Assembly: GCA_965209055.1 (NCBI GenBank)
Contig: OZ242374.1
Span: 1,184,001 to 1,248,000, forward strand
Length of the DNA stretch: 64,000 nt
Source of the DNA: Acidobacteriota bacterium
GTDB lineage: Bacteria > Acidobacteriota > UBA6911 > RPQK01 > JAJDTT01
Reading direction: 5' to 3'
A model generated the notes under the pieces. The model was not told where the DNA came from. It searched no databases and saw only the letters and a list, made by a program, of their open reading frames with translations. The position numbers and the translations under genes were made by a program. Within the stretch, counting starts at the first letter, position 1; every line of letters starts with the position of its first letter. Below, one piece after another: positions 3,104 through 63,567 of this stretch.

Positions 3104-4149
3104 ATTTCCCGTCCCGTGAGGACCCGGTCGCGGCGCACCCGCCAGCGCTTGGCCAGCGCCTGGGGAGTCCGCGCCATCCCCGCCGCGAGTCCTCGCAGGA
3201 ACGACCCCACGTAGCCCGCCTTGAGGGCGTGGAACGCCGTGCTGCGGGCCCAGCCGTAGGCCAAGTGGAGCAGGTTGCGTCCCGGTTGATAGGTGACCAT
3301 CAACTGCCACCGGTTGCGGGTGATCCAGTAGACCCGGGCCGGCGAATAGCAGACGGGGAGTGAAGGCGGGTCCGGCCGGGGTGGGATCGACCGGACCCTG
3401 GCGTCCGTCTCCGCCGGAAGGACGAGTCGGCAGTCCTCCTCTACCGATGCCAGGAGGTCCGCCACCAGGTCTTTCCGAGAGGAATCGGACGCTGCCTCTA
3501 TATGGTAGACGATAGCCTCGGGGACGTAAAGGCAGGAATGGCCGGTGAACTGGGCTCTCAGGCTCAGTTCCACGTCCTCCAGGTACATGTAGTAGGTTTC
3601 ATCGAAGAGCCCGATGCGGTCGAAGAGCCGGCGGCGGTAGAAGGCGGCGCCGGCGCTGGCCCCCAGGACCGGCCGGCTGTGGCTGTGGAGCCGGCACGCG
3701 TCGCCCCGGCCCCGCTTGAAGGGCATTCCCGTCCGGTCGTAGCCGTCGCCGGCGCTGTCGATGAGGTCCCGCCGGCGGAAGTCCATCATTCGGGACGCCA
3801 GGAACCAGTAGGAGGGGTTCCGGTCCAACGCCGCCAGTCCCGCCTCCACCCAGCCCGGGTCCACCTCCGTGTCGTTGTTCAGGAGCGCCACGTATTCGGA
3901 ACTGCAATGGAGGATGCCGCGATTCACCGCCCGGGCGAACCCCTGGTTCTCCTCCAGCGCCAGCGCCTCCACCCCGGGAAACCGGTCTTCAAGCATCTCC
4001 CGGGTCGAGTCGGTGGAACCGTTGTCCACCACCAGGACGGGGCATCGCACCCGCTGCCTGGCCAGCGACGAGAGGCAGTGCTCCAGCAGCCGGGCCCGGT
4101 TCCACGTGGGGATGATCACCGTCAGCCTGGGATCGTAGCCGCCGGTCAT
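3079..4149 (-). CDS. Glycosyltransferase family 2
   Basis: VIIPTWN, VVDNGSTD, LLNND, GLFDETYYMYLEDVE. ATG 4149 overlaps the upstream TGA (ATGA). Confidence 0.9.
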   Translation of the reverse strand: MTGGYDPRLTVIIPTWNRARLLEHCLSSLARQRVRCPVLVVDNGSTDSTREMLEDRFPGVEALALEENQGFARAVNRGILHCSSEYVALLNNDTEVDPGWVEAGLAALDRNPSYWFLASRMMDFRRRDLIDSAGDGYDRTGMPFKRGRGDACRLHSHSRPVLGASAGAAFYRRRLFDRIGLFDETYYMYLEDVELSLRAQFTGHSCLYVPEAIVYHIEAASDSSRKDLVADLLASVEEDCRLVLPAETDARVRSIPPRPDPPSLPVCYSPARVYWITRNRWQLMVTYQPGRNLLHLAYGWARSTAFHALKAGYVGSFLRGLAAGMARTPQALAKRWRVRRDRVLTGREICRLMNGS

Positions 4150-5105
4150 GCCTGGCGTTCCTCCCGCCGGCCTCGAAGCAGCCCCAGGTTGTAGTGGTAG
4201 CTCATGAGATCCGGATAGAGGGAGCTCAGGTCCGGCCAACCCCGTTTCTCGGTCCAGGCGCAGGCCCAGGTCAGCAGCTCCATGCGCACCCGGTCCCGGA
4301 GCCGGTATCGGGGCAGGCGGTCCACGTTGAGGAAGTCCGCCAACTCGGGATGCTTGCGGTAGAAGTTCCAGGCCGAGGAGCCGACCCGCCGCTGCCGCCG
4401 GACGAAAGCCCTCACCGACGTCGGGTGGTGATGGTGGGCCACCGCGCCCGCGTGGTAGACCAGCCGCATCCCCATCCGGTGGAGCCGCCATCCCAACTCG
4501 ATGTCCTCCCACCCGTACTCGCCGAAGTCCTCGTCGAACCCCCCCGACTCCCGGAAGAACTCCCGGGAGATGGAGAGGTTGCTGGTGTAGAAGAAGTTGA
4601 AGGGAACGTCGTTCGGGTCTTCGATCAGCGCGAACCCGAACTGCCACCCCTCCTCGCCCACGTACTCCATGAACCGGGTCCGGGGATACTCCCGGGCCCA
4701 GGGCGTGTACCCGATCACCACGACCCGTTCGGCATCCTCGCGCCGGACCCCGTCGCGCGCCCCGAGATGCCCCTCCAGAAAACCGGACCCGGGAACCGTA
4801 TCGTCCCCCAGAAACACCAGCCACTCCCCCCGGGCCCGCCCCACGCCCAGGTTCCGCGCCGCGCCCTGCTTGCGATTCTCCTGGTGAAGGTAAACCAGCG
4901 GCACCGGATACTCCGAAGCCATCCCCCGAACCCGCTCGCCCGTGTCGTCGGTGGATCCGTCGTCCACCACGATCACCTCGTAGGGAACGCCGCCCCCCGA
5001 ATCGTCCGCAGACTCCTCAAGCAACGTCTGCCGGCCCAGCGCCTCCAACGTCCGCACCAGGATCCGGGACCGGTTGTAGGTCGGGATGACGACGGTCGCT
5101 CGCAT
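4146..5105 (-). CDS. Glycosyltransferase family 2
   Basis: VVIPTYNR, VVDDGSTD, FLGDD, GGFDEDFGEYGWEDIELGWRL. Confidence 0.92.
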   Translation of the reverse strand: MRATVVIPTYNRSRILVRTLEALGRQTLLEESADDSGGGVPYEVIVVDDGSTDDTGERVRGMASEYPVPLVYLHQENRKQGAARNLGVGRARGEWLVFLGDDTVPGSGFLEGHLGARDGVRREDAERVVVIGYTPWAREYPRTRFMEYVGEEGWQFGFALIEDPNDVPFNFFYTSNLSISREFFRESGGFDEDFGEYGWEDIELGWRLHRMGMRLVYHAGAVAHHHHPTSVRAFVRRQRRVGSSAWNFYRKHPELADFLNVDRLPRYRLRDRVRMELLTWACAWTEKRGWPDLSSLYPDLMSYHYNLGLLRGRREERQA

Positions 5106-5279
5106 GGTCCTGCCCCAAGTCTACCAAGGAGAGCCGATCTCCAATCGCCCGCTCTTGCGTCGCCGCATTGCTACGCGGCAGTCCGGCGGTTGGAAACCGC
5201 CTCCCGCTGGGCTCTTTCGCATATTTGTCGCGGCCGTCGTTGTATATTGTGAATGCAAGACTTCGGAGGACTCCAAGCC

Positions 5280-5552
5280 ATGAATGTCGATCTGATCAGC
5301 GTCCTGGTAGCCGTCGTCGCAGTAGGAGTCGGCCTGGCCGGACTGGTGCTGGCCGGTTGGCGAGGCGTTCGGCTCGAAATGCGCGAAATGCGCCACGAGA
5401 TGCGCGGAGAGATCCACGAAATCCGGCAGGACATGGGCAACCACATGGGACGGATCGACTCCCAAATCGCCGAACTCCGGGAACGGATCGGCCGCGTGGA
5501 AGGATTACTGCAGGGACTGCGGAAAGTCTTCATCCCCCGCACCGCGGACTAG
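5280..5552 (+). CDS. Small N-terminal TM + coiled-coil protein, copy 1 (90 aa)
   Basis: MNVDLISVLVAVVAVGVGLAGLVLA hydrophobic segment, heptad-like middle, LRERIGRVEGLLQGLR end, GGAGG RBS. Confidence 0.8.
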   Translation: MNVDLISVLVAVVAVGVGLAGLVLAGWRGVRLEMREMRHEMRGEIHEIRQDMGNHMGRIDSQIAELRERIGRVEGLLQGLRKVFIPRTAD

Positions 5553-5752
5553 GACCAGCGCTGCCAGGAAGGGCGATTGGAAGGGTGATTGGAAGGGCGA
5601 TTTCTAATCGCCCTCTTCGTCTTTCCCCCCAAGCCGAATAAGAAATCGGCGGTTAGGAAACCGCCGCCCCGCCCCAACCGAGATCTTTCGCATATTTTCC
5701 GCGATCGTCGTTTGTATACTATTGAACGCACAACATCCGAGGACTCGAAGCC

Positions 5753-6088
5753 ATGAATGTCGATCTGATCAGCGTCCTGGTAGCCGTCGTCGCAGTAGGA
5801 GTCGGCCTGGCCGGCCTGGTGTTGGCCAGTTGGCGGGGCGTCCGGCACGAAATGCGGGGCATGCGCCACGAGATGCGCGGAGAGATCCACGAAGTCCGGC
5901 ACGAAATGCGCGGCATGCGGCACGAGATGCGGGGAGAGATCCACGAAGTCCGGCAGGAGATGCGGGATATGCGCAACCACATGGGACGGATGGACGCCCA
6001 TATCGGCGATCTCCGGCAACGCGTGGGGCACGTGGAAGGATTGCTGCGGGGCCTGCGGGAAGTCTTCGTTCCCCGCACTGCGGACTAG
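5753..6088 (+). CDS. Small TM + coiled-coil protein, copy 2 (111 aa, internal 18-aa duplication)
   Basis: Paralogue of copy 1; RHEMRGMRHEMRGEIHEV occurs twice. Confidence 0.8.
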   Translation: MNVDLISVLVAVVAVGVGLAGLVLASWRGVRHEMRGMRHEMRGEIHEVRHEMRGMRHEMRGEIHEVRQEMRDMRNHMGRMDAHIGDLRQRVGHVEGLLRGLREVFVPRTAD

Positions 6089-6276
6089 GAGGAGCGCCAG
6101 GAAGGGCGATTGGAAGGGCGATTTCTAATCGCCCTCTTCGTCTTTCCCCCAAGCCGAGTAAGAAATCGGCGGTTAGGAAACCGCCGCCCCGGCCCGCCCC
6201 AACCGAGATCTTTCGCATATTTTCCGCGATCGTCGTTTGTATACTATTGAACGCACAACATCCGAGGACTCCCCCC

Positions 6277-6546
6277 ATGAATGTCGATCTGATCAGCGTC
6301 CTGGTAGCCGTCGTCGCAGTAGGAGTCGGCCTGGCCGGACTGACATTGGCCAGTTGGCGGGGCGTCCGGCATGATATGTGGGACATGCGGCAGGAGATGC
6401 GGGACATGTGCCAGGAGATGAGGGACGTGCGCAACCACATGGGACGGATCGATTCCCATATCGCCGAACTCCGGGAACGGATCGGCCGTGTCGAAGGACT
6501 ACTGCAGGGACTGCGGAAGGTCTTCATCCCCCGCACCGTGGACTAG
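6277..6546 (+). CDS. Small TM + coiled-coil protein, copy 3 (89 aa)
   Basis: ATG 6277 after GAGG; paralogue of copies 1, 2 and 4. Confidence 0.8.
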   Translation: MNVDLISVLVAVVAVGVGLAGLTLASWRGVRHDMWDMRQEMRDMCQEMRDVRNHMGRIDSHIAELRERIGRVEGLLQGLRKVFIPRTVD

Positions 6547-6752
6547 GACCAGCGCTGCCAGGAAGGGCGCTAGGAAGGGCGATTGGAAGGGCGATTGGAA
6601 GGGCGATTTCCTAATCGCCCGTTCTTCATCCCCCCAAGCCGAATAAAAAATCGGCGGTTAGGAAACCGCCGCCCCAACCGAGATCTTTCGCATATTTTCC
6701 GCGATCGTCGTTTGTATACTATTGAACGCACAACATCCGAGGACTCCCCCCC

Positions 6753-7034
6753 ATGAATGTTGACCTGATCAGCGTCCTGGTAGCCGTCGTCGCAGTAGGA
6801 GTCGGCCTGGCCGGACTGACATTGGCCAGTTGGCGAGGCGTCCGGCACGAAATGCGGGACATGCGGCAAGAGATACGGGGAGAGATCCACGAAGTCCGGC
6901 AGGAGATGCGGGATATGCGCAACCAGATGGGACGGATCGACTCCCATATCGCCGAACTCCGGGAACGGATCGGCCGTGTGGAAGGACTACTGCAGGGACT
7001 GCGGAAAGTCTTCGTTCCCCGCACTGTGGCCTAG
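6753..7034 (+). CDS. Small TM + coiled-coil protein, copy 4 (93 aa)
   Basis: Paralogue with the same upstream region. Confidence 0.8.
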   Translation: MNVDLISVLVAVVAVGVGLAGLTLASWRGVRHEMRDMRQEIRGEIHEVRQEMRDMRNQMGRIDSHIAELRERIGRVEGLLQGLRKVFVPRTVA

Positions 7035-7070
7035 GAGGAGCGCCAGTAAGGGCGCTAGGAAGGGCGCTAG

Positions 7071-7597
7071 GAAGGGCGATTTCCTAATCGCCCGTTCTTC
7101 TTCCCCTCACATCGCGTCAGGAATCAGCGGTTGGAAACCGCCGCCCCAGGGGGAGGAAGGGCGATTTCCCAATCGCCCGTTCTTATTTCCCCTCACACCG
7201 CGTCAGGAATCGGCGGTTGGAAACCGCCGCTCCAGGGGGAGCAAGGGCGATTTCCCAATCGCCCGTTCTTATTTCCCCCACATCGCGTCAGGAATCGGCG
7301 GTTGGAAACCGCCGCCCCAGGGGGAGGAAGGGCGATTTCCCAATCGCCCGTTCTTATTTCCCCCACATCGCGGCAGGAATCGGCGGTTGGAAACCGCCAC
7401 CCCAGGGGGAGGAAGGGCGATTTCCCAATCGCCCGTTCTTCTTTCCCTCACATCGCGGCAGGAATCGGCGGTTGGAAACCGCCGCCCCAGGGGGAGGAAG
7501 GGCGATTTCCTAATCGCCCGTTCTTATTTCCGCCACATCGCGGCAGGAATCGGCGGTTAGGAAACCGCCGCCCCATCGGCGATTGGAAACCGCCGCC
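7071..7597. repeat. BIME-like tandem array: six 85-86-bp units, each with two different REP hairpins
   Basis: Units start at 7071, 7156, 7242, 7327, 7412 and 7497. Each has GGGCGATTTCC(C/T)AATCGCCC, a linker, then GGCGGTTGGAAACCGCC. Linkers are near-identical. Confidence 0.92.
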
Positions 7598-7611
7598 CCA
7601 TCCGCTTTTTT

Positions 7612-8934
7612 TCACACCGCCCGGTTGACGTAGTCGATGGCCCGGAGGCAGGCCACCCTCAACCCCTCCCGGCGGACAGTGCGGAAGAATCTCGCCGCCA
7701 GGCCCGGCGGACCCGGCGGATGCAGCGCGGCGTGAGATGCTACCCAGCGGAGGTCCCGGAACTCCCTCTCGAGAGTCCGGATCTTCTCCCGCAGGGCCTC
7801 CGGCAGGGAATCCAGTGACGCCGCGCTGGGCCCCAGGTCCAGCAGGGAACCCAGGTCGAGCGACTGCAGGAACTCCAGTTCCTCTTGGACGTAGCCCGGA
7901 TCGTCCACGATCTGCCGCAGCGGGTCGCCGAACAGCTCCACGATCTCCCGGTCGCCGCGCCGGCGCAGCGCCTGAACCTGGCGCCGCTTCTCCAGCAACC
8001 GCGGCAGCGATTGGAGCACGTCGTCCACGGCCACCAGGTGGTTCAACGAGTCCAGCAACCGCGACCGTGCGGTGGCGCCGCCCTCCTCCAGCCTGTGCCG
8101 CGTCTCGGACCAGAAGTAGAAACTCTCCTTGCGGACCCCCGAAAAATGCACCGCCCGCTTCACCGAGAGGACCAGGGCCAACGGCAGGATCTTCCGGAAG
8201 TTCTCCTCCTCGTAGTTCTTGAAGATGGTGAGCAGCGCGTTCCGGTGGATCAGGTAGCGGGTCTTCTCCGGGGCCTGGGTTTCCAACGTGGCATGTCCCC
8301 GGTGGCGCACCACCGAATCGGGGGCCAGGACCACGCGGTAGCCGGCCAGCCAGAGCCGCCAACCCAGGTCCACGTCCTCGAACAGGGCGAAGTAATCCGG
8401 GTCGAATCCCCCCAGCTCCAGAAAGACCTCTCGGTCCACCAGCATGGCCCCGCCGCAGGGGAACAGCACCTCCTCCCGGCGGACCGCCTTCTCCACCGCC
8501 AGGCCCAGATCCTCCTGCAACCCGTACCCCAGGTATTGCAGGGAGGAGCCGTTGTAGTCGATGCGGCTCCCCTCCCAGTCCAGGATCCGGGAGGCCACGC
8601 AGGGAGTTCGTGCGTCCAGCTTCTCCAGAGCGGCGGCCAGCCAATCCGGTTCCGGGCGCATGTCGTTGTTGATGAAGGCGACGCAGGACCCCTGCGCCGT
8701 CTCGGCCCCGACGTTGCAGGGCTGGGCGAAGCCGCGGTTGACTCCGTTCTCCAGCAACCGGACCTGGGGATAGCGCCTCCGCAGGAACTCCTGGGAGCCG
8801 TCGGTGCTCCCGTTGTCCACCACGATGACCTCGCCCGGTTCCAGCGCCAGCAGGGGAGGGAGCAGGGTCGACAGGTGGGATTTTCCGTTCCAGTTGACGG
8901 TGACGACCGTGACGTCACCGGGGGATGGGGACAT
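7612..8934 (-). CDS. Glycosyltransferase family 2 with C-terminal helical/coiled-coil extension
   Basis: TVNWNG, VVDNGSTDGS, FINND, GGFDPDYFALFEDVDLGWR. Confidence 0.9.
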   Translation of the reverse strand: MSPSPGDVTVVTVNWNGKSHLSTLLPPLLALEPGEVIVVDNGSTDGSQEFLRRRYPQVRLLENGVNRGFAQPCNVGAETAQGSCVAFINNDMRPEPDWLAAALEKLDARTPCVASRILDWEGSRIDYNGSSLQYLGYGLQEDLGLAVEKAVRREEVLFPCGGAMLVDREVFLELGGFDPDYFALFEDVDLGWRLWLAGYRVVLAPDSVVRHRGHATLETQAPEKTRYLIHRNALLTIFKNYEEENFRKILPLALVLSVKRAVHFSGVRKESFYFWSETRHRLEEGGATARSRLLDSLNHLVAVDDVLQSLPRLLEKRRQVQALRRRGDREIVELFGDPLRQIVDDPGYVQEELEFLQSLDLGSLLDLGPSAASLDSLPEALREKIRTLEREFRDLRWVASHAALHPPGPPGLAARFFRTVRREGLRVACLRAIDYVNRAV

Positions 8935-59513: not shown

Positions 59514-60707
59514 ATGCCCCTCACCGCCACTGCCGTTCGTCATGCGAAACCTTCCAAGAAGACCAGGAAAATGTTCGACGGAAGGGGTCTGTATCTGGAA
59601 TTAACTCCCAGCGGCGGCAAACGTTGGCGGCTGAAATATCGCTTCGCAGGAAAAGAGAAACGGATCTCCCTCGGTGTATATCCCGACGTGTCCTTGAAAG
59701 AAGCCCGGATACGGCGTCATCAAGCACGCACGCTGTTGGCCCGAGAGATCGATCCCAGCGAGCACCGCAAAGCGCACAAGGCCGCGAAGGAACAACGCTC
59801 AGCCAACAGTTTCGAAGCCGTGGCCCGGGAATGGTTCACGAAACATGCTCCCAACTGGGCGACGAGTCACGCCACGCGCGTCCTCAGCCGACTGGAGCGG
59901 GACATCTTTCCGTGGATGGGCAGGCGGCCGATTTCCCGCATCACGGCCCCTGAGTTGTTGGCCGTTGTCCGTCGGATCGAGAAACGGGGGGCACTGGAGA
60001 GTGCCCACCGGACCCTTCGGATCTGCGGACAGGTGTTTCGCTATGCAGTGGCCACGGGAAGAGCCCAGCGTGACCCCTCCAGTGACTTGCGAGGCGCATT
60101 GCCGCCGGTCAAGAGAACCCACTTCGCCGCTCTGACCGAACCAAAGGAGGTCGGACCCTTGCTGCGAGTGCTGGACGGCTACCGGGGGACGCTGATCGTG
60201 CGTTGCGCCCTGCGCTTCGCTCCGTTAGTCTTCGTGCGGCCCGGGGAGTTGCGCCACGCTCAGTGGTCGGATATCGATCTAGAAGCGGCGGAGTGGCGTT
60301 ACACCGTCACCAAGACCGACCTCCCGCATGTCGTTCCGCTTGCCCGCCAAGCAGTGGGGATCCTAAGCGAACTGCAACCCCTGACCGGACGGGGACGCTA
60401 TGTGTTCCCCAGTGCCCGCACTCCGAACGGAAACCGACCCATGAGCGAGAATGCCGTTCTCGCCGCCCTGCGGCGCATGGGGATCGGAAAGGAGGAGATG
60501 ACGGGCCATGGGTTTCGGGCGATGGCAAGAACCATCCTAGATGAAGTGTTGGGATTTCGTCCCGACTTCATCGAGCACCAGTTGGCCCACGCGGTGCGTG
60601 ACCCCAACGGGCGGGCTTACAACCGCACGGCCTATCTGCCGGAACGGCGAAAGATGATGCAGGAGTGGGCCGACTATCTGGATCAGTTGAAGGCAGTGAG
60701 CAAGTAA
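59514..60707 (+). CDS. P4-like tyrosine recombinase/integrase
   Basis: Arm-binding N-terminus (DGRGLYL...GGKRWRLKYR...SLGVYP); catalytic R (VRPGE), K, HGFR, LAH, Y (AYNR). Confidence 0.95.
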   Translation: MPLTATAVRHAKPSKKTRKMFDGRGLYLELTPSGGKRWRLKYRFAGKEKRISLGVYPDVSLKEARIRRHQARTLLAREIDPSEHRKAHKAAKEQRSANSFEAVAREWFTKHAPNWATSHATRVLSRLERDIFPWMGRRPISRITAPELLAVVRRIEKRGALESAHRTLRICGQVFRYAVATGRAQRDPSSDLRGALPPVKRTHFAALTEPKEVGPLLRVLDGYRGTLIVRCALRFAPLVFVRPGELRHAQWSDIDLEAAEWRYTVTKTDLPHVVPLARQAVGILSELQPLTGRGRYVFPSARTPNGNRPMSENAVLAALRRMGIGKEEMTGHGFRAMARTILDEVLGFRPDFIEHQLAHAVRDPNGRAYNRTAYLPERRKMMQEWADYLDQLKAVSK

Positions 60708-62391: not shown

Positions 62392-63567
62392 CTAACCAGT
62401 GATCAGATCCTCAAGACGTTCTCCCCACCGCTGCAACGCTCGGCCTATTTCCGGTAGCTTGTCCCACCGGTTGTACACTGCTGTCATGTGCCGGAACGGC
62501 CACGAGTGGTTCAGAATCCGGGCGATTGTGACATCGTCGGTGCCGAGCTTGCTCAAGTTCGTCGCACAGGTCCGCCGCAAGTCGTGGGGTCGAAAATGGA
62601 ATCCTGTTTTTTTCTGAATGCGTTGGCTCATCTTTTGGAGCCAGCGGATGTGTCCACCTCTGGGGGAGGCAAAGACAAATTCCGAGTCACCAGTCAAGGG
62701 GCGCAGGCCCTCGATGATGACCAGAGCCTGCGACGACAAGGGCACCTTGTGTTCACGCTTGTTCTTGGTTTCGGTGGCTGGAACGGTCCAGATGTTCTCG
62801 TCGTCCAGGTCGCGCCACCGCATCGCTTTCGTTTCGCCGGGTCTTTGCCCCATCAACAAGATGAGCCGATAGATGGAAGCGGTCGGTTCCATTCGGTTCT
62901 CCAAATCTTTCCAAAGCGCCCGGATTTCATGGTCGCTCAGCACGCGGTCACGACTCCTTTCCCTGGCCGGCAAAGCGACGTGGGTGCAGGGATTGGCAAA
63001 TGTCTCCGGAACCAGCGCCTTCCTCAACGCAAAATTGAAGATCGTGGAGGTCAGTGCCTTGACCCGGTTGGCCATGACCGGAGCCTGACGATTGAATTGG
63101 ATGTCGTCCAGAAGACGAATGACATCGGACCGTGTGATGGTGCGAAACTTTCTTCGGCCCCAAACCGGCAGCAGGTAGGTGTTCAAGATGCGAGTGTCTT
63201 CCTTGATGCTGGCCGGTTTCTTGTTGGGTCGGGCGTGTCTCTCCAGATACAACTCGGCCAACTCCTCGAATGTACCGGCTTGGCGTTCTTGCCGGCGTTC
63301 TTCCGCTGGGTCTTCTCCTCGCTGGACCGCACCCAGCAATTTGAACGCCTGAGACCTGGCCTGAGCCAGCGAGAGTGCCGGATAGACGCCAAGCTTCATC
63401 CGTCTTCGTCGGCCGTCGGCTCGATAAAGGAACGTGAAGGTTTTTCGCCCGCTCTTCATGATCCGAACTCCGAAAGATCCAGGGAAGGACTGATCCCAGA
63501 ATTCCTGGACAGTTTGTTCCGTCTTCAGGTTCTTCAGCAGTCTGTCGGTCAGCTTTGTGGTGGGCAT
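62392..63567 (-). CDS. Second tyrosine recombinase/integrase
   Basis: Arm-binding N-terminus (WD...FGVRI..SGRKTF...LGVYP), GQRPGE, TKNKREH, HDLRRT, LNH, VYNR. Confidence 0.92.
   Translation of the reverse strand: MPTTKLTDRLLKNLKTEQTVQEFWDQSFPGSFGVRIMKSGRKTFTFLYRADGRRRRMKLGVYPALSLAQARSQAFKLLGAVQRGEDPAEERRQERQAGTFEELAELYLERHARPNKKPASIKEDTRILNTYLLPVWGRRKFRTITRSDVIRLLDDIQFNRQAPVMANRVKALTSTIFNFALRKALVPETFANPCTHVALPARERSRDRVLSDHEIRALWKDLENRMEPTASIYRLILLMGQRPGETKAMRWRDLDDENIWTVPATETKNKREHKVPLSSQALVIIEGLRPLTGDSEFVFASPRGGHIRWLQKMSQRIQKKTGFHFRPHDLRRTCATNLSKLGTDDVTIARILNHSWPFRHMTAVYNRWDKLPEIGRALQRWGERLEDLITG

What the first reader, a model, noticed from the sequence alone, without database searches (positions are those of the whole stretch)
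5129..7597. 'Loaded' and 'empty' cassette array: one REP doublet frames four small genes, then repeats six times with no cargo
Seen: the doublet GGGCGATTTC..AATCGCCC, a ~35-nt linker, GGCGGTT(A)GGAAACCGCC precedes each of four paralogous genes (about 5129 degenerate, 5591, 6111, 6597). It then recurs as six cargo-free 85-bp units (7071-7597). Each loaded unit has its own TATACT-like box and RBS. The block sits antisense inside a glycosyltransferase operon. Established: REP doublets and BIMEs are substrates of HUH (RAYT/TnpA-REP) nucleases and are recombination hotspots. Inference: an integron-like or accordion-like array in which REP doublets act as sites for gain, loss or amplification of a gene cassette. 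No recombinase or RAYT is encoded in the window.
Basis: partly seen in the sequence, partly recalled or inferred. Interest (0 to 1): 0.8.

Follow-up and report, generated by a model that had tools for sequence, protein, structure and literature searches.

The report
Tandem small-gene array separated by REPINs
Four tandem copies of a small membrane-anchored helical-rod gene are separated by the genome's ordinary mobile palindrome pairs, and the locus looks like ordinary tandem duplication, not a new gene-capture system.

Summary
Four paralogous small genes (89-111 aa) lie head to tail. Each is preceded by a hairpin A, 32-34 nt linker, hairpin B doublet and a conserved promoter-like motif. A 5.9 x 85-bp doublet array follows, between two opposite-strand GT2 genes.

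The doublet is not special to this locus. It is the genome's standard REPIN, with 282 exact hairpins genome-wide. The same doublets flank a RAYT gene about 46 kb upstream of the array. The "empty" part is one of 14 pure REPIN tandem arrays in the genome.

All 8 congeneric genomes carry the small gene in the same slot, in 1 to 4 copies. The REP types there differ between species, and three relatives have IS insertions. Copies mostly group by genome in a tree. The doublet before gene 4 is a chimera of the downstream and upstream doublet types, as unequal REP-to-REP crossover would leave. The four dispersed paralogues have no REPs.

Verdict: tandem paralogue amplification by homologous recombination in a REPIN- and IS-rich intergenic hotspot, with terminator-like REPINs. 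The accordion idea is partly supported. The integron-like cassette idea is not. Interest is low to moderate.

The parts
4146..5105 (-). GT2 glycosyltransferase gene. Its 5' end faces the array, so the two are divergent.
   Evidence: Pfam Glycos_transf_2, 8.1e-23. An orthologue flanks the slot in all 8 congeners.
5129..5201 (+). Degenerate REPIN before gene 1: a half A (CCAATCGCCC, 5141-5150) and an intact B (5185-5201, TTGG loop).
5216..5279 (+). Conserved promoter-like motif (TTCGCAT..CGTCGTTGTATATT) and GAGGA ribosome-binding site of gene 1.
   Evidence: The same motif stands upstream of paralogues in relatives and, in weaker form, of the dispersed paralogues. The sigma-70 scan did not flag it.
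5280..5552 (+). Small gene copy 1, 90 aa: N-terminal TM helix plus EMR heptad-repeat helix.
5567..5602 (+). 12-nt repeats (GGAAGGGCGATT x3): the tag plus the left arm of hairpin A.
   Evidence: Six of the 7 forward-strand genome hits of this half-REP repeat lie in this array.
5595..5665 (+). REPIN doublet 2: A with TCT loop, 34-nt linker, B with TTAGG loop. It is terminator-like on both strands.
5753..6088 (+). Small gene copy 2, 111 aa, with an extra 54-nt (18-aa) heptad block.
6116..6185 (+). REPIN doublet 3, nearly identical to doublet 2.
6277..6546 (+). Small gene copy 3, 89 aa.
6561..6608 (+). 12-nt half-REP repeats, x4.
   Evidence: One 12-mer is missing in a contig of run X2 (table 4).
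6601..6670 (+). REPIN doublet 4, a chimera. The A arm and its tail are of the 'empty-array' type. The linker and B are of the loaded type.
   Evidence: alignment A2
6753..7034 (+). Small gene copy 4, 93 aa.
   Evidence: The model is a single helix over residues 2-91, pLDDT 72.8.
7069..7575 (+). Tandem REPIN (BIME-like) array, 85 nt x 5.9.
   Evidence: It is one of 14 pure A/B tandem arrays in the genome.
7578..7594 (+). Solo B-like REP (GGCGATTGGAAACCGCC).
7612..8934 (-). GT2 glycosyltransferase gene. Its 3' end is convergent with the array.
12089..12484 (-). Paralogue 5 (131 aa) in a second slot, flanked by other REP types.
12753..12995 (-). Paralogue 6 (80 aa) in the second slot.

Best explanation
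The locus is a tandem paralogue array of a lineage-restricted small gene. The protein is a single-pass membrane anchor followed by one long helix with a variable number of heptads. The array sits in an old intergenic slot of a Wzm/Wzt-type glycan cluster.

Each copy appears to be its own transcription unit. It has a conserved promoter-like motif and ribosome-binding site in front. A REPIN follows the stop codon, at 32-66 nt in this genome and directly after TAGGAG in several relatives. The REPIN consists of two inverted REP hairpins, each with a 5' GGAG/GGAA tag.

These REPINs are ordinary members of the genome's RAYT-associated REPIN population. Here they probably act as intrinsic-terminator-like or RNA-stabilising hairpins. 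That role is inferred.

Copy number grew and shrank by unequal homologous recombination or gene conversion between repeated units. This is shown by comparison between species and by mosaicism within the array. At least one crossover fell inside the REPINs themselves, which is shown by the chimeric doublet before gene 4.

The six 'empty' units are a separate local tandem amplification of one REPIN. This is the usual BIME or REPIN-cluster behaviour. They lie between the convergent 3' ends of the small-gene array and the GT operon.
For: 1. The doublet is the genome's REPIN.
- There are 187 exact B and 95 exact A hairpins genome-wide, or 460 hairpins in 233 clusters with one mismatch allowed.
- 55 of 95 A hairpins have a B-like partner downstream, mostly 31-37 nt away. 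80 of 95 A are preceded by GGAA or GGAG. 157 of 187 reverse-complemented B are preceded by GGAGC or GGGGC.
- A Y1 (RAYT) gene scores 30.8 bits on Pfam Y1_Tnp against a cut-off of 23. Its best NCBIfam hit is REP_Tyr_transpos at 1e-21. Two A, one B and a B-like hairpin flank it.

2. The 'empty' array is ordinary here. 15 of 67 tandem-repeat loci with period 60 or more carry A/B hairpins. 14 of them are pure REP arrays of period 65-128, and four others have 6.9-13.3 copies. Tandem REPIN and BIME clusters are described in passages of PMC3116915 and PMC8266576.

3. The slot is conserved and copy number varies.
- The family was found in 8 of 8 same-genus genomes.
- It always lies between the same two GT orthologues.
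- G000 has 4 copies, G004 has 3 and G003 has 2. G001 has 1 plus a truncated copy. G002, G005, G006 and G007 have 1 each. G008 has at least 2, on contigs that break there.

4. Expansion was lineage-specific or concerted. The 3 copies of G004 form a clade (100/99). G000 copies 1, 3 and 4 form a clade (95/95).

5. The units are mosaic. Promoter segments are identical in units 2-4. The 3' ends pair as 1=3 and 2=4. The N-terminal segments pair as 1=2 and 3=4.

6. The REPIN before gene 4 is chimeric. Its A arm and tail match the empty units, and its linker and B match units 2-3.

7. The loaded and empty doublets are different subtypes.

8. Terminator-like sites number 13 against 2.3 expected. A hairpins with a T-rich tail lie on the + strand, and B hairpins with a T-rich tail lie on the - strand. 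Both hairpins fold in the RNA predictions.

9. REP pairs also separate unrelated genes, for example in a pseudopilin-like operon at genome 1133-1134.7 kb.
Against: - Only 1 of the 3 internal junctions is informative about where a crossover fell.
- All comparisons are between species. No second strain of the same species was available.
- The short-read contigs could not bridge the array, so the count of six 85-bp units rests on the assembly alone.
- The promoter and terminator roles are untested, and the sigma-70 scan found 0 sites.
- The NCBIfam RAYT score is 77.4, just under the cut-off of 80.
- The 12-nt repeats of tag plus half a hairpin are almost confined to this array. This reading does not explain them beyond slippage.
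- A RAYT paralogue lies within the fetched 19-kb locus in 4 of 8 relatives. A direct RAYT role is therefore not excluded.
Confidence: 0.75

Rival explanations
1. REPIN/RAYT-driven cassette system. The RAYT cuts at the doublets, and gene units are excised, inserted or amplified site-specifically, as in an integron.
For: - The REPs belong to a RAYT system.
- In relatives the REP hairpin follows directly after the stop codon (TAGGAG).
- Tandem repeats of tag plus half a hairpin are nearly specific to this array.
- A RAYT paralogue lies within the fetched 19-kb locus in 4 of 8 relatives.
- REP-cluster density peaks at 20 and 11 per 100 kb around the RAYT and this window, against a mean of 3.8.
Against: - All units hold the same gene family with its own promoter-like motif.
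- The 4 dispersed paralogues have no REP within 300 bp.
- In 20 distant loci the family is a single copy in 18 and mostly lacks flanking hairpins.
- The loaded and empty doublets are different subtypes.
- 13 other pure REPIN arrays exist in the genome without cargo, and no other locus with a period of 270 or more carries A/B REPs (0 of 18).
- The nearest tyrosine recombinase match is about 53 kb away, and the RAYT is about 46 kb away.
- RAYT-mediated movement of cargo genes is not described in the passages read.
Confidence: 0.07
2. The REPINs are pure passengers. The gene was duplicated as a gene-plus-spacer unit by slippage or unequal exchange within coding or promoter homology only. The REPINs have no role in recombination or expression.
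For: - Doublets 2 and 3 are nearly identical, as expected if they were simply copied with the unit.
- 18 other long-period tandem loci in the genome have no A/B REPs.
- The coding region contains 21- and 54-nt repeats that are prone to slippage.
Against: - The chimeric doublet before gene 4 shows exchange inside a REPIN.
- A REP hairpin, of varying type, sits directly after the stop codon across the genus, which suggests a retained role.
- Terminator-like sites are enriched, 13 against 2.3 expected.
Confidence: 0.13
3. Assembly artefact: a repeat was expanded or collapsed by the assembler.
For: - Short-read contigs break throughout the region, and none spans it.
- The closest relative's assembly (G008) breaks inside its array.
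Against: - The genome is one 6.08-Mb contig.
- The four copies differ from each other in sequence and length.
- Contigs of run X19 match unit-specific stretches of each copy with 0-1 differences (5391-5595, 5950-6129, 6330-6483, 6977-7098, table 8). That run may be the source sample, so this is not independent.
- Relatives with single-contig genomes also hold 2-3 tandem copies.
Confidence: 0.03

Closest known systems
REPIN-RAYT systems (REP doublets forming hairpins; Bertels and Rainey 2011, PMC3116915, passages read)
   Same: - Two inverted short palindromes separated by a spacer of about 33 nt.
- Hundreds of copies, occurring as singlets, doublets and ordered tandem clusters of nearly identical REPINs together with their flanks.
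- A REP cluster next to the RAYT gene.
- The RAYT is present in all 9 genomes of the genus.
   Different: - The host is an Acidobacteriota/Aminicenantes-type MAG lineage according to record titles, not a Pseudomonas or an enterobacterium.
- The 5' tag is GGAG/GGAA, not GTAG.
- Here REPINs alternate with tandem gene copies. The passages read do not describe that arrangement.
BIMEs of Escherichia coli (REP plus inverted REP, often in consecutive tandem copies; introduction of PMC8266576, passages read)
   Same: - Alternating inverted REPs with a variable linker, in tandem copies.
- An intergenic position between operon genes or at convergent 3' ends.
- Proposed roles in transcription attenuation and mRNA stability.
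   Different: The sequences are unrelated. No binding of IHF, gyrase or Pol I could be tested.
REP-mediated tandem chromosomal duplications in Salmonella (Shyamala, Schneider and Ames, EMBO J 1990). This is recalled, and the paper search did not retrieve it.
   Same: Recombination between REP copies on either side of a segment yields a tandem duplication with a hybrid REP at the join point. Doublet 4 here fits that pattern.
   Different: Those duplications were large, unstable and selected in the laboratory. This one is a fixed, diverged array of 480-bp units.
Integron cassette arrays
   Same: Direct array of small genes separated by imperfect palindromic sites.
   Different: - No adjacent integrase.
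- The units are paralogues of one family.
- Each unit has its own promoter-like motif.
- The palindromes are a genome-wide REP family.

Membership tests
REPIN / BIME (REP doublet) | Short palindromic repeat present in high copy number across the genome | tested here: met
   187 exact B and 95 exact A hairpins. With one mismatch allowed, 460 hairpins in 233 clusters.
REPIN / BIME (REP doublet) | Two REPs in inverted orientation separated by a short spacer, acting as the repeated unit | tested here: met
   A resembles the reverse complement of B, with one covarying stem position. 55 of 95 A have a B-like partner downstream, mostly at 31-37 nt. 'A+ B+' and 'B- A-' are the commonest multi-hit clusters, 26 of 56.
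REPIN / BIME (REP doublet) | Conserved 5' tetranucleotide next to the palindrome (most often GTAG, per PMC8266576) | tested here: inconclusive
   A conserved tag exists, but it is GGAG/GGAA (80 of 95 A) and GGAGC/GGGGC (157 of 187 reverse-complemented B), not GTAG.
REPIN / BIME (REP doublet) | A RAYT (Y1 HUH transposase) gene flanked by the same REPs | tested here: met
   The gene lies at G000:C1:1142808-1143563. Pfam Y1_Tnp gives 30.8 bits against a cut-off of 23. An HVH motif and a YWDR tyrosine are visible in the translation. Two A and one B lie 5' of it and a B-like hairpin lies at its 3' end. NCBIfam REP_Tyr_transpos gives 77.4 against a cut-off of 80.
REPIN / BIME (REP doublet) | Predominantly extragenic location | not tested
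   No gene calls for the whole genome were made. The sites inspected by eye were intergenic.
Integron | IntI-type tyrosine recombinase and attI next to the array | tested here: not met
   The nearest Phage_integrase matches lie at window 60147-60596 and 62467-62943, about 53 kb away. The flanks are GT2 genes.
Integron | Promoterless cassettes of unrelated genes, each ending in an attC site | tested here: not met
   All four units are paralogues (62-86% identity). Each has the same promoter-like motif. The palindromes are genome-wide REPs.
REP-mediated tandem duplication | Hybrid REP at the join point: the 5' part from the downstream REP and the 3' part from the upstream REP | tested here: met
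   In doublet 4 (6601-6670) the loop and tail match the empty units e1-e6, and the linker and B match doublets 2 and 3. The other two junctions are uninformative.
Active RAYT-dependent mobility of these units | Cleavage and strand transfer at the REP foot, with excision products | not testable with these tools
   Only contigs of public runs were on hand. Their joints had sides under 30 nt and match REPs elsewhere.

The most novel reading that the evidence does not exclude
The REPINs are more than passive spacers. At this slot they, possibly with help from a RAYT that lies near the cluster in several relatives, serve as the preferred breakpoints of a fast 'accordion'. The accordion would change both the copy number and, through the 21/54-nt heptad repeats, the rod length of a membrane-anchored coiled-coil protein tied to a Wzm/Wzt glycan pathway. 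The tandem half-REP repeats (tag plus left arm) would be footprints of repeated RAYT nicking and strand transfer.
Probability: 0.1. Interest if true: 0.65.

Novelty: new member of a known kind. Interest (0 to 1): 0.3.

Why it matters
The locus documents a complete REPIN-RAYT system in an uncultured Acidobacteriota/Aminicenantes-type lineage. The system has a GGAG-type tag, inverted doublets, many tandem arrays and a conserved RAYT. The locus also gives a clean natural example of a hybrid REPIN at a gene-duplication junction. It does not reveal a new gene-capture mechanism. If strain-level data later showed breakpoints confined to the REP feet, it would become a rare case of REPINs shaping gene copy number.

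Tried and rejected
- Public sequencing runs. Only Logan contigs were available. No contig spans the array. All listed joints have sides under 30 nt or unknown letters between them, and they fit REP copies elsewhere. There is no verdict on copy-number variants or circles.
- Metagenome contig scan with P0002. None of the 474 pattern matches was confirmed as a relative.
- Function of the small protein. Pfam and NCBIfam give only sub-threshold coiled-coil noise such as DUF1664, COMP and Mua. The ESM Atlas returns only unnamed clusters. The AlphaFold model is one long helix with pLDDT 72.8, so no fold search was worthwhile.
- Sigma-70 promoter scan: 0 sites. The promoter reading therefore rests only on conservation of the motif.
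- Earlier notes on this genome: none.
- Paper search for REP join-point duplications. It returned nothing relevant, so the Salmonella precedent is cited from recall.
- I considered the empty units as cassettes that had lost their cargo and rejected this. Their linker and B-loop subtype differ from those of the loaded units, and 13 similar arrays elsewhere have no gene family nearby.
- I looked at G003's promoter-only unit as a possible gene excision at a REP. It could equally be a REPIN insertion into a duplicated 5' UTR, so it stays undecided.
Full report
WHAT IS THERE. The window is G000:C1:1184001-1248000 of a single 6.08-Mb contig with 62.8% G+C. Between two minus-strand GT2 glycosyltransferase genes (4146-5105 and 7612-8934) lie four plus-strand paralogues. 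They are at 5280-5552 (90 aa), 5753-6088 (111 aa), 6277-6546 (89 aa) and 6753-7034 (93 aa). Each is preceded by hairpin A (GGGCGATTTC(C)TAATCGCCC), a 32-34-nt linker and hairpin B (GGCGGTTAGGAAACCGCC). A conserved stretch ending in CGTCGTTTGTATACT and a GAGGA about 9 nt before the ATG follow. Before gene 1 the A hairpin is reduced to its right half. After gene 4 come 5.9 copies of an 85-nt A-linker-B unit (7069-7575, 94% matches) and one solo B-like hairpin. The motifs found 7, 9 and 15 matches in the window, against a mean of 0.00 in shuffles.

NESTED REPEATS. The locus has further layers of repetition.
- 21- and 54-nt repeats inside the coding regions make up the EMR heptads and account for the longer copy 2.
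- 12-nt repeats of GGAAGGGCGATT (tag plus left arm of A) occur 3-4 times just 5' of three of the A hairpins.
- Six of the 7 forward-strand genome hits of that half-REP repeat are in this array.

THE DOUBLET IS THE GENOME'S REPIN.
- The genome holds 187 exact B and 95 exact A hairpins in 154 clusters. With one mismatch allowed there are 460 hairpins in 233 clusters.
- A is close to the reverse complement of B, differing at one covarying stem pair.
- 80 of 95 A are preceded by GGAA or GGAG. 157 of 187 reverse-complemented B are preceded by GGAGC or GGGGC. 55 of 95 A have a B-like hairpin downstream, mostly 31-37 nt away.
- A Y1 transposase gene lies at genome 1142808-1143563, about 46 kb upstream of the array. 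It passes Pfam Y1_Tnp (30.8 bits, cut-off 23). Its best NCBIfam hit is REP_Tyr_transpos at 77.4 bits, just under the cut-off of 80. It shows an HVH motif. Two A, one B and a B-like hairpin flank it.
- This is the arrangement described for REPIN-RAYT systems and REPtrons in the passages read from PMC3116915 and PMC8266576.
- RAYT homologues occur in 9 of 9 genomes of the genus.

THE 'EMPTY' ARRAY IS ORDINARY HERE. Tandem Repeats Finder run on the whole genome gives 67 loci with a period of 60 or more. Fifteen of them contain A/B hairpins. Fourteen of these are pure REP arrays of period 65-128. Four of them are longer than this one, with 6.9, 7.0, 7.9 and 13.3 copies. The fifteenth is the gene-bearing array itself (476 nt x 3.1). 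None of the other 18 loci with a listed period of 270 or more carries A/B hairpins. REP pairs also separate unrelated genes, for example between successive genes of a pseudopilin-like operon at genome 1133-1134.7 kb. The empty units also differ in subtype from the loaded doublets. Their linker reads CACATCGCG.CAGGAATC against AAGCCGA.TAAGAAATC in the loaded units. Their B loop is TTGG against TTAGG. They are therefore a separate amplification of one REPIN and not cassettes that lost their cargo.

THE GENE FAMILY. The protein has an N-terminal hydrophobic helix, an arginine-rich heptad region of variable length and a conserved C-terminal GRIDSHI.ELRER...VEGLL.GLR motif. The AlphaFold model is one helix over residues 2-91, with mean pLDDT 72.8. 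No Pfam or NCBIfam model reaches its cut-off, and the Atlas gives only unnamed clusters. The large protein search found 181 relatives. The only names given are 'hypothetical protein' from Candidatus Aminicenantes MAGs. Genome records with relatives are titled Acidobacteriota or Aminicenantes MAGs for the closest. At 34-48% identity they include Candidatus Binatia, one Candidatus Poriferisocius and one Bryobacterales record. The surrounding cluster holds many GT2 genes and a Wzm/Wzt-like ABC transporter: ABC2_membrane at 14384-15169, and ABC_tran with a sub-threshold Wzt_C match (28.9 bits, cut-off 30.4) at 13179-14387. Any link of the rod protein to glycan export is speculation.

COMPARISON WITH RELATIVES.
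- The family was found in 12 of 41 genomes searched. That is 8 of 8 in the same genus, 0 of 6 in the sister genus, and 3 more distant genomes.
- In all 8 congeners the gene lies in the same slot between the orthologues of the two GT2 genes.
- Copy number in the slot is 4 in G000, 3 in G004 and 2 in G003. G001 has 1 plus a 5'-truncated copy. G002, G005, G006 and G007 have 1 each. G008 has at least 2, and its contigs end inside the array.
- The slot is a hotspot. G006 has a TnpB (OrfB_IS605) insertion between promoter and ATG. G005 has an IS110-family insertion. G002 has a DDE_Tnp_1 insertion.
- REP types differ between species. In several, a REP hairpin follows directly after TAGGAG at the gene's end, but it may be A-type or another type (GGCGACTTTCCTGTCGCC and others).
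- The 85-nt array was seen only in G000 among these loci.
- A second slot (window 12089-12995) holds 0-2 copies in different species.
- In a maximum-likelihood tree of 25 copies, G004's three slot copies form a clade (100/99). G000 copies 1, 3 and 4 form a clade (95/95). G000 copy 2 joins the last copy of G008 with weaker support (84/92). I left the truncated copies and the divergent antisense paralogue out of the tree.

HOW THE ARRAY CHANGES. The units are mosaic. The promoter segment is identical in units 2-4 and differs in unit 1. The 3' ends pair as 1=3 and 2=4. The N-terminal segment pairs as 1=2 and 3=4. That is the pattern left by repeated unequal exchange or gene conversion. The doublet before gene 4 is a chimera. 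Its A loop (TCCT) and tail (GTTCTTC) are those of the empty units downstream. Its linker and B are those of doublets 2 and 3. An unequal crossover between the REPIN downstream of a gene and the REPIN upstream of it gives exactly such a hybrid at the new junction. I recall this from the Salmonella REP join-point work of Shyamala and colleagues, which the paper search did not retrieve. The other two junctions are uninformative because the doublets on either side are alike.

AGAINST A CASSETTE SYSTEM.
- All units are one family, each with its own promoter-like motif.
- The four dispersed paralogues (genome 4264454, 4565853, 802558 and 480362) have no REP hairpin within 300 bp, whereas the six clustered ones do.
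- In 20 more distant loci the family is a single copy in 18, mostly without flanking hairpins.
- No recombinase adjoins the array.

LIKELY ROLE OF THE REPINS (inferred). Terminator-like sites number 13 in 4900-7800, against 2.3 expected. Hairpin A with a T-rich tail lies on the plus strand. In the loaded units, hairpin B with a T-rich tail lies on the minus strand. Both hairpins form in the RNA folds. The tails are interrupted T runs, so the terminators would be weak. The six-unit array lies where the small genes and the GT operon converge.

WHAT STAYS OPEN. Public runs gave only contigs, which cannot bridge the repeats. Contigs of run X19 do match unit-specific stretches of all four copies with 0-1 differences, which argues against a collapsed or invented copy. 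That run may be the source sample. One contig of X2 lacks one 12-mer at 6573. The number of 85-nt units, strain-level variation, any RAYT activity and the meaning of the half-REP repeats remain untested. A RAYT paralogue lies within the fetched 19-kb locus in 4 of 8 relatives: intact in G003 and G005, frameshifted in G006 and partial at the fetched edge in G002. REP-cluster density peaks at 20 and 11 per 100 kb around the RAYT and this window, against a mean of 3.8. A direct RAYT contribution therefore keeps a small probability.

VERDICT. The structure is real and tidy. It is explained by known processes: a REPIN-RAYT repeat population, BIME-like tandem REPIN arrays, and tandem paralogue amplification with a REP-to-REP join. 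It is a new member of a known kind and of low to moderate interest. I did not test that note.

Noticed in passing
G000:C1:1142808-1144421 (L001/L025), outside the window: The single intact RAYT lies next to a Phage_integrase-family gene. A degraded RAYT remnant at genome 782738-782999 also lies next to an integrase match (783201-783656). The genome has 58 Phage_integrase matches, about 27 of them with nearly equal scores (90-100 bits). This suggests a multi-copy tyrosine-recombinase element.
   Followed up: partly
window 60147-60596 (+) and 62467-62943 (-): Two Phage_integrase-family matches lie at the far end of the window. The first also has a Phage_int_M domain.
   Followed up: partly
genome 1.1-1.3 Mb, which includes the window: A/B REP-cluster density is 20 and 11 per 100 kb here, against a genome mean of 3.8. 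The RAYT gene lies in the same interval.
   Followed up: no
genome 1132900-1134700, outside the window: A pseudopilin-like operon has REP hairpin pairs of several types in each of its short intergenic gaps. Some of them run into the 5' ends of the reading frames.
   Followed up: no
window 11980-12720, and relatives L015-L024: Several REP types share the frame GGCG-N-(T/C)TTCC-N-CGCC with covarying stem positions (GGCGACAGGAATGTCGCC, GCGGCGGTTTTCTTACCGCCGC, GGGGGACT...GTCCCCCC). They replace one another at the same site between species, as in a REP superfamily undergoing turnover.
   Followed up: partly
L015 9228-9440 (-), L018 15143-15334 (+), L019 14450-14662 (+), L024 383-574 (+): Most relatives carry a divergent paralogue of 63-70 aa next to the GT_4146 orthologue, on the GT strand. 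It has a TM helix and the C-terminal IRERVAHIEGLLKGLR motif and lacks the EMR repeats. G000 and G007 lack it.
   Followed up: partly
L015 about 9550-9930 (G003): A unit with B, promoter-like motif and 5' UTR runs straight into GGAG plus hairpin A with no gene. It is either a precise gene loss or a REPIN insertion into a duplicated leader.
   Followed up: partly
L015 18415-18999, L019 793-1413, L023 17522-18129, L020 2-130: RAYT paralogues lie at the edge of the same glycan cluster in 4 of 8 congeners. One is frameshifted and one is cut by the fetched edge. G000 has none there.
   Followed up: partly
window 13179-15169 (-): A Wzt-like ATPase (ABC_tran over cut-off, Wzt_C just under it) and a Wzm-like ABC-2 permease mark the cluster as a likely ABC-transporter-dependent glycan pathway.
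   Followed up: no
L022 (G008:C458), the part beyond 8051: The contig of the closest relative joins the last small-gene copy to unrelated coding sequence and repeats part of the GT_7612 orthologue (7063-7638). It is probably a mis-join at the repeats.
   Followed up: no
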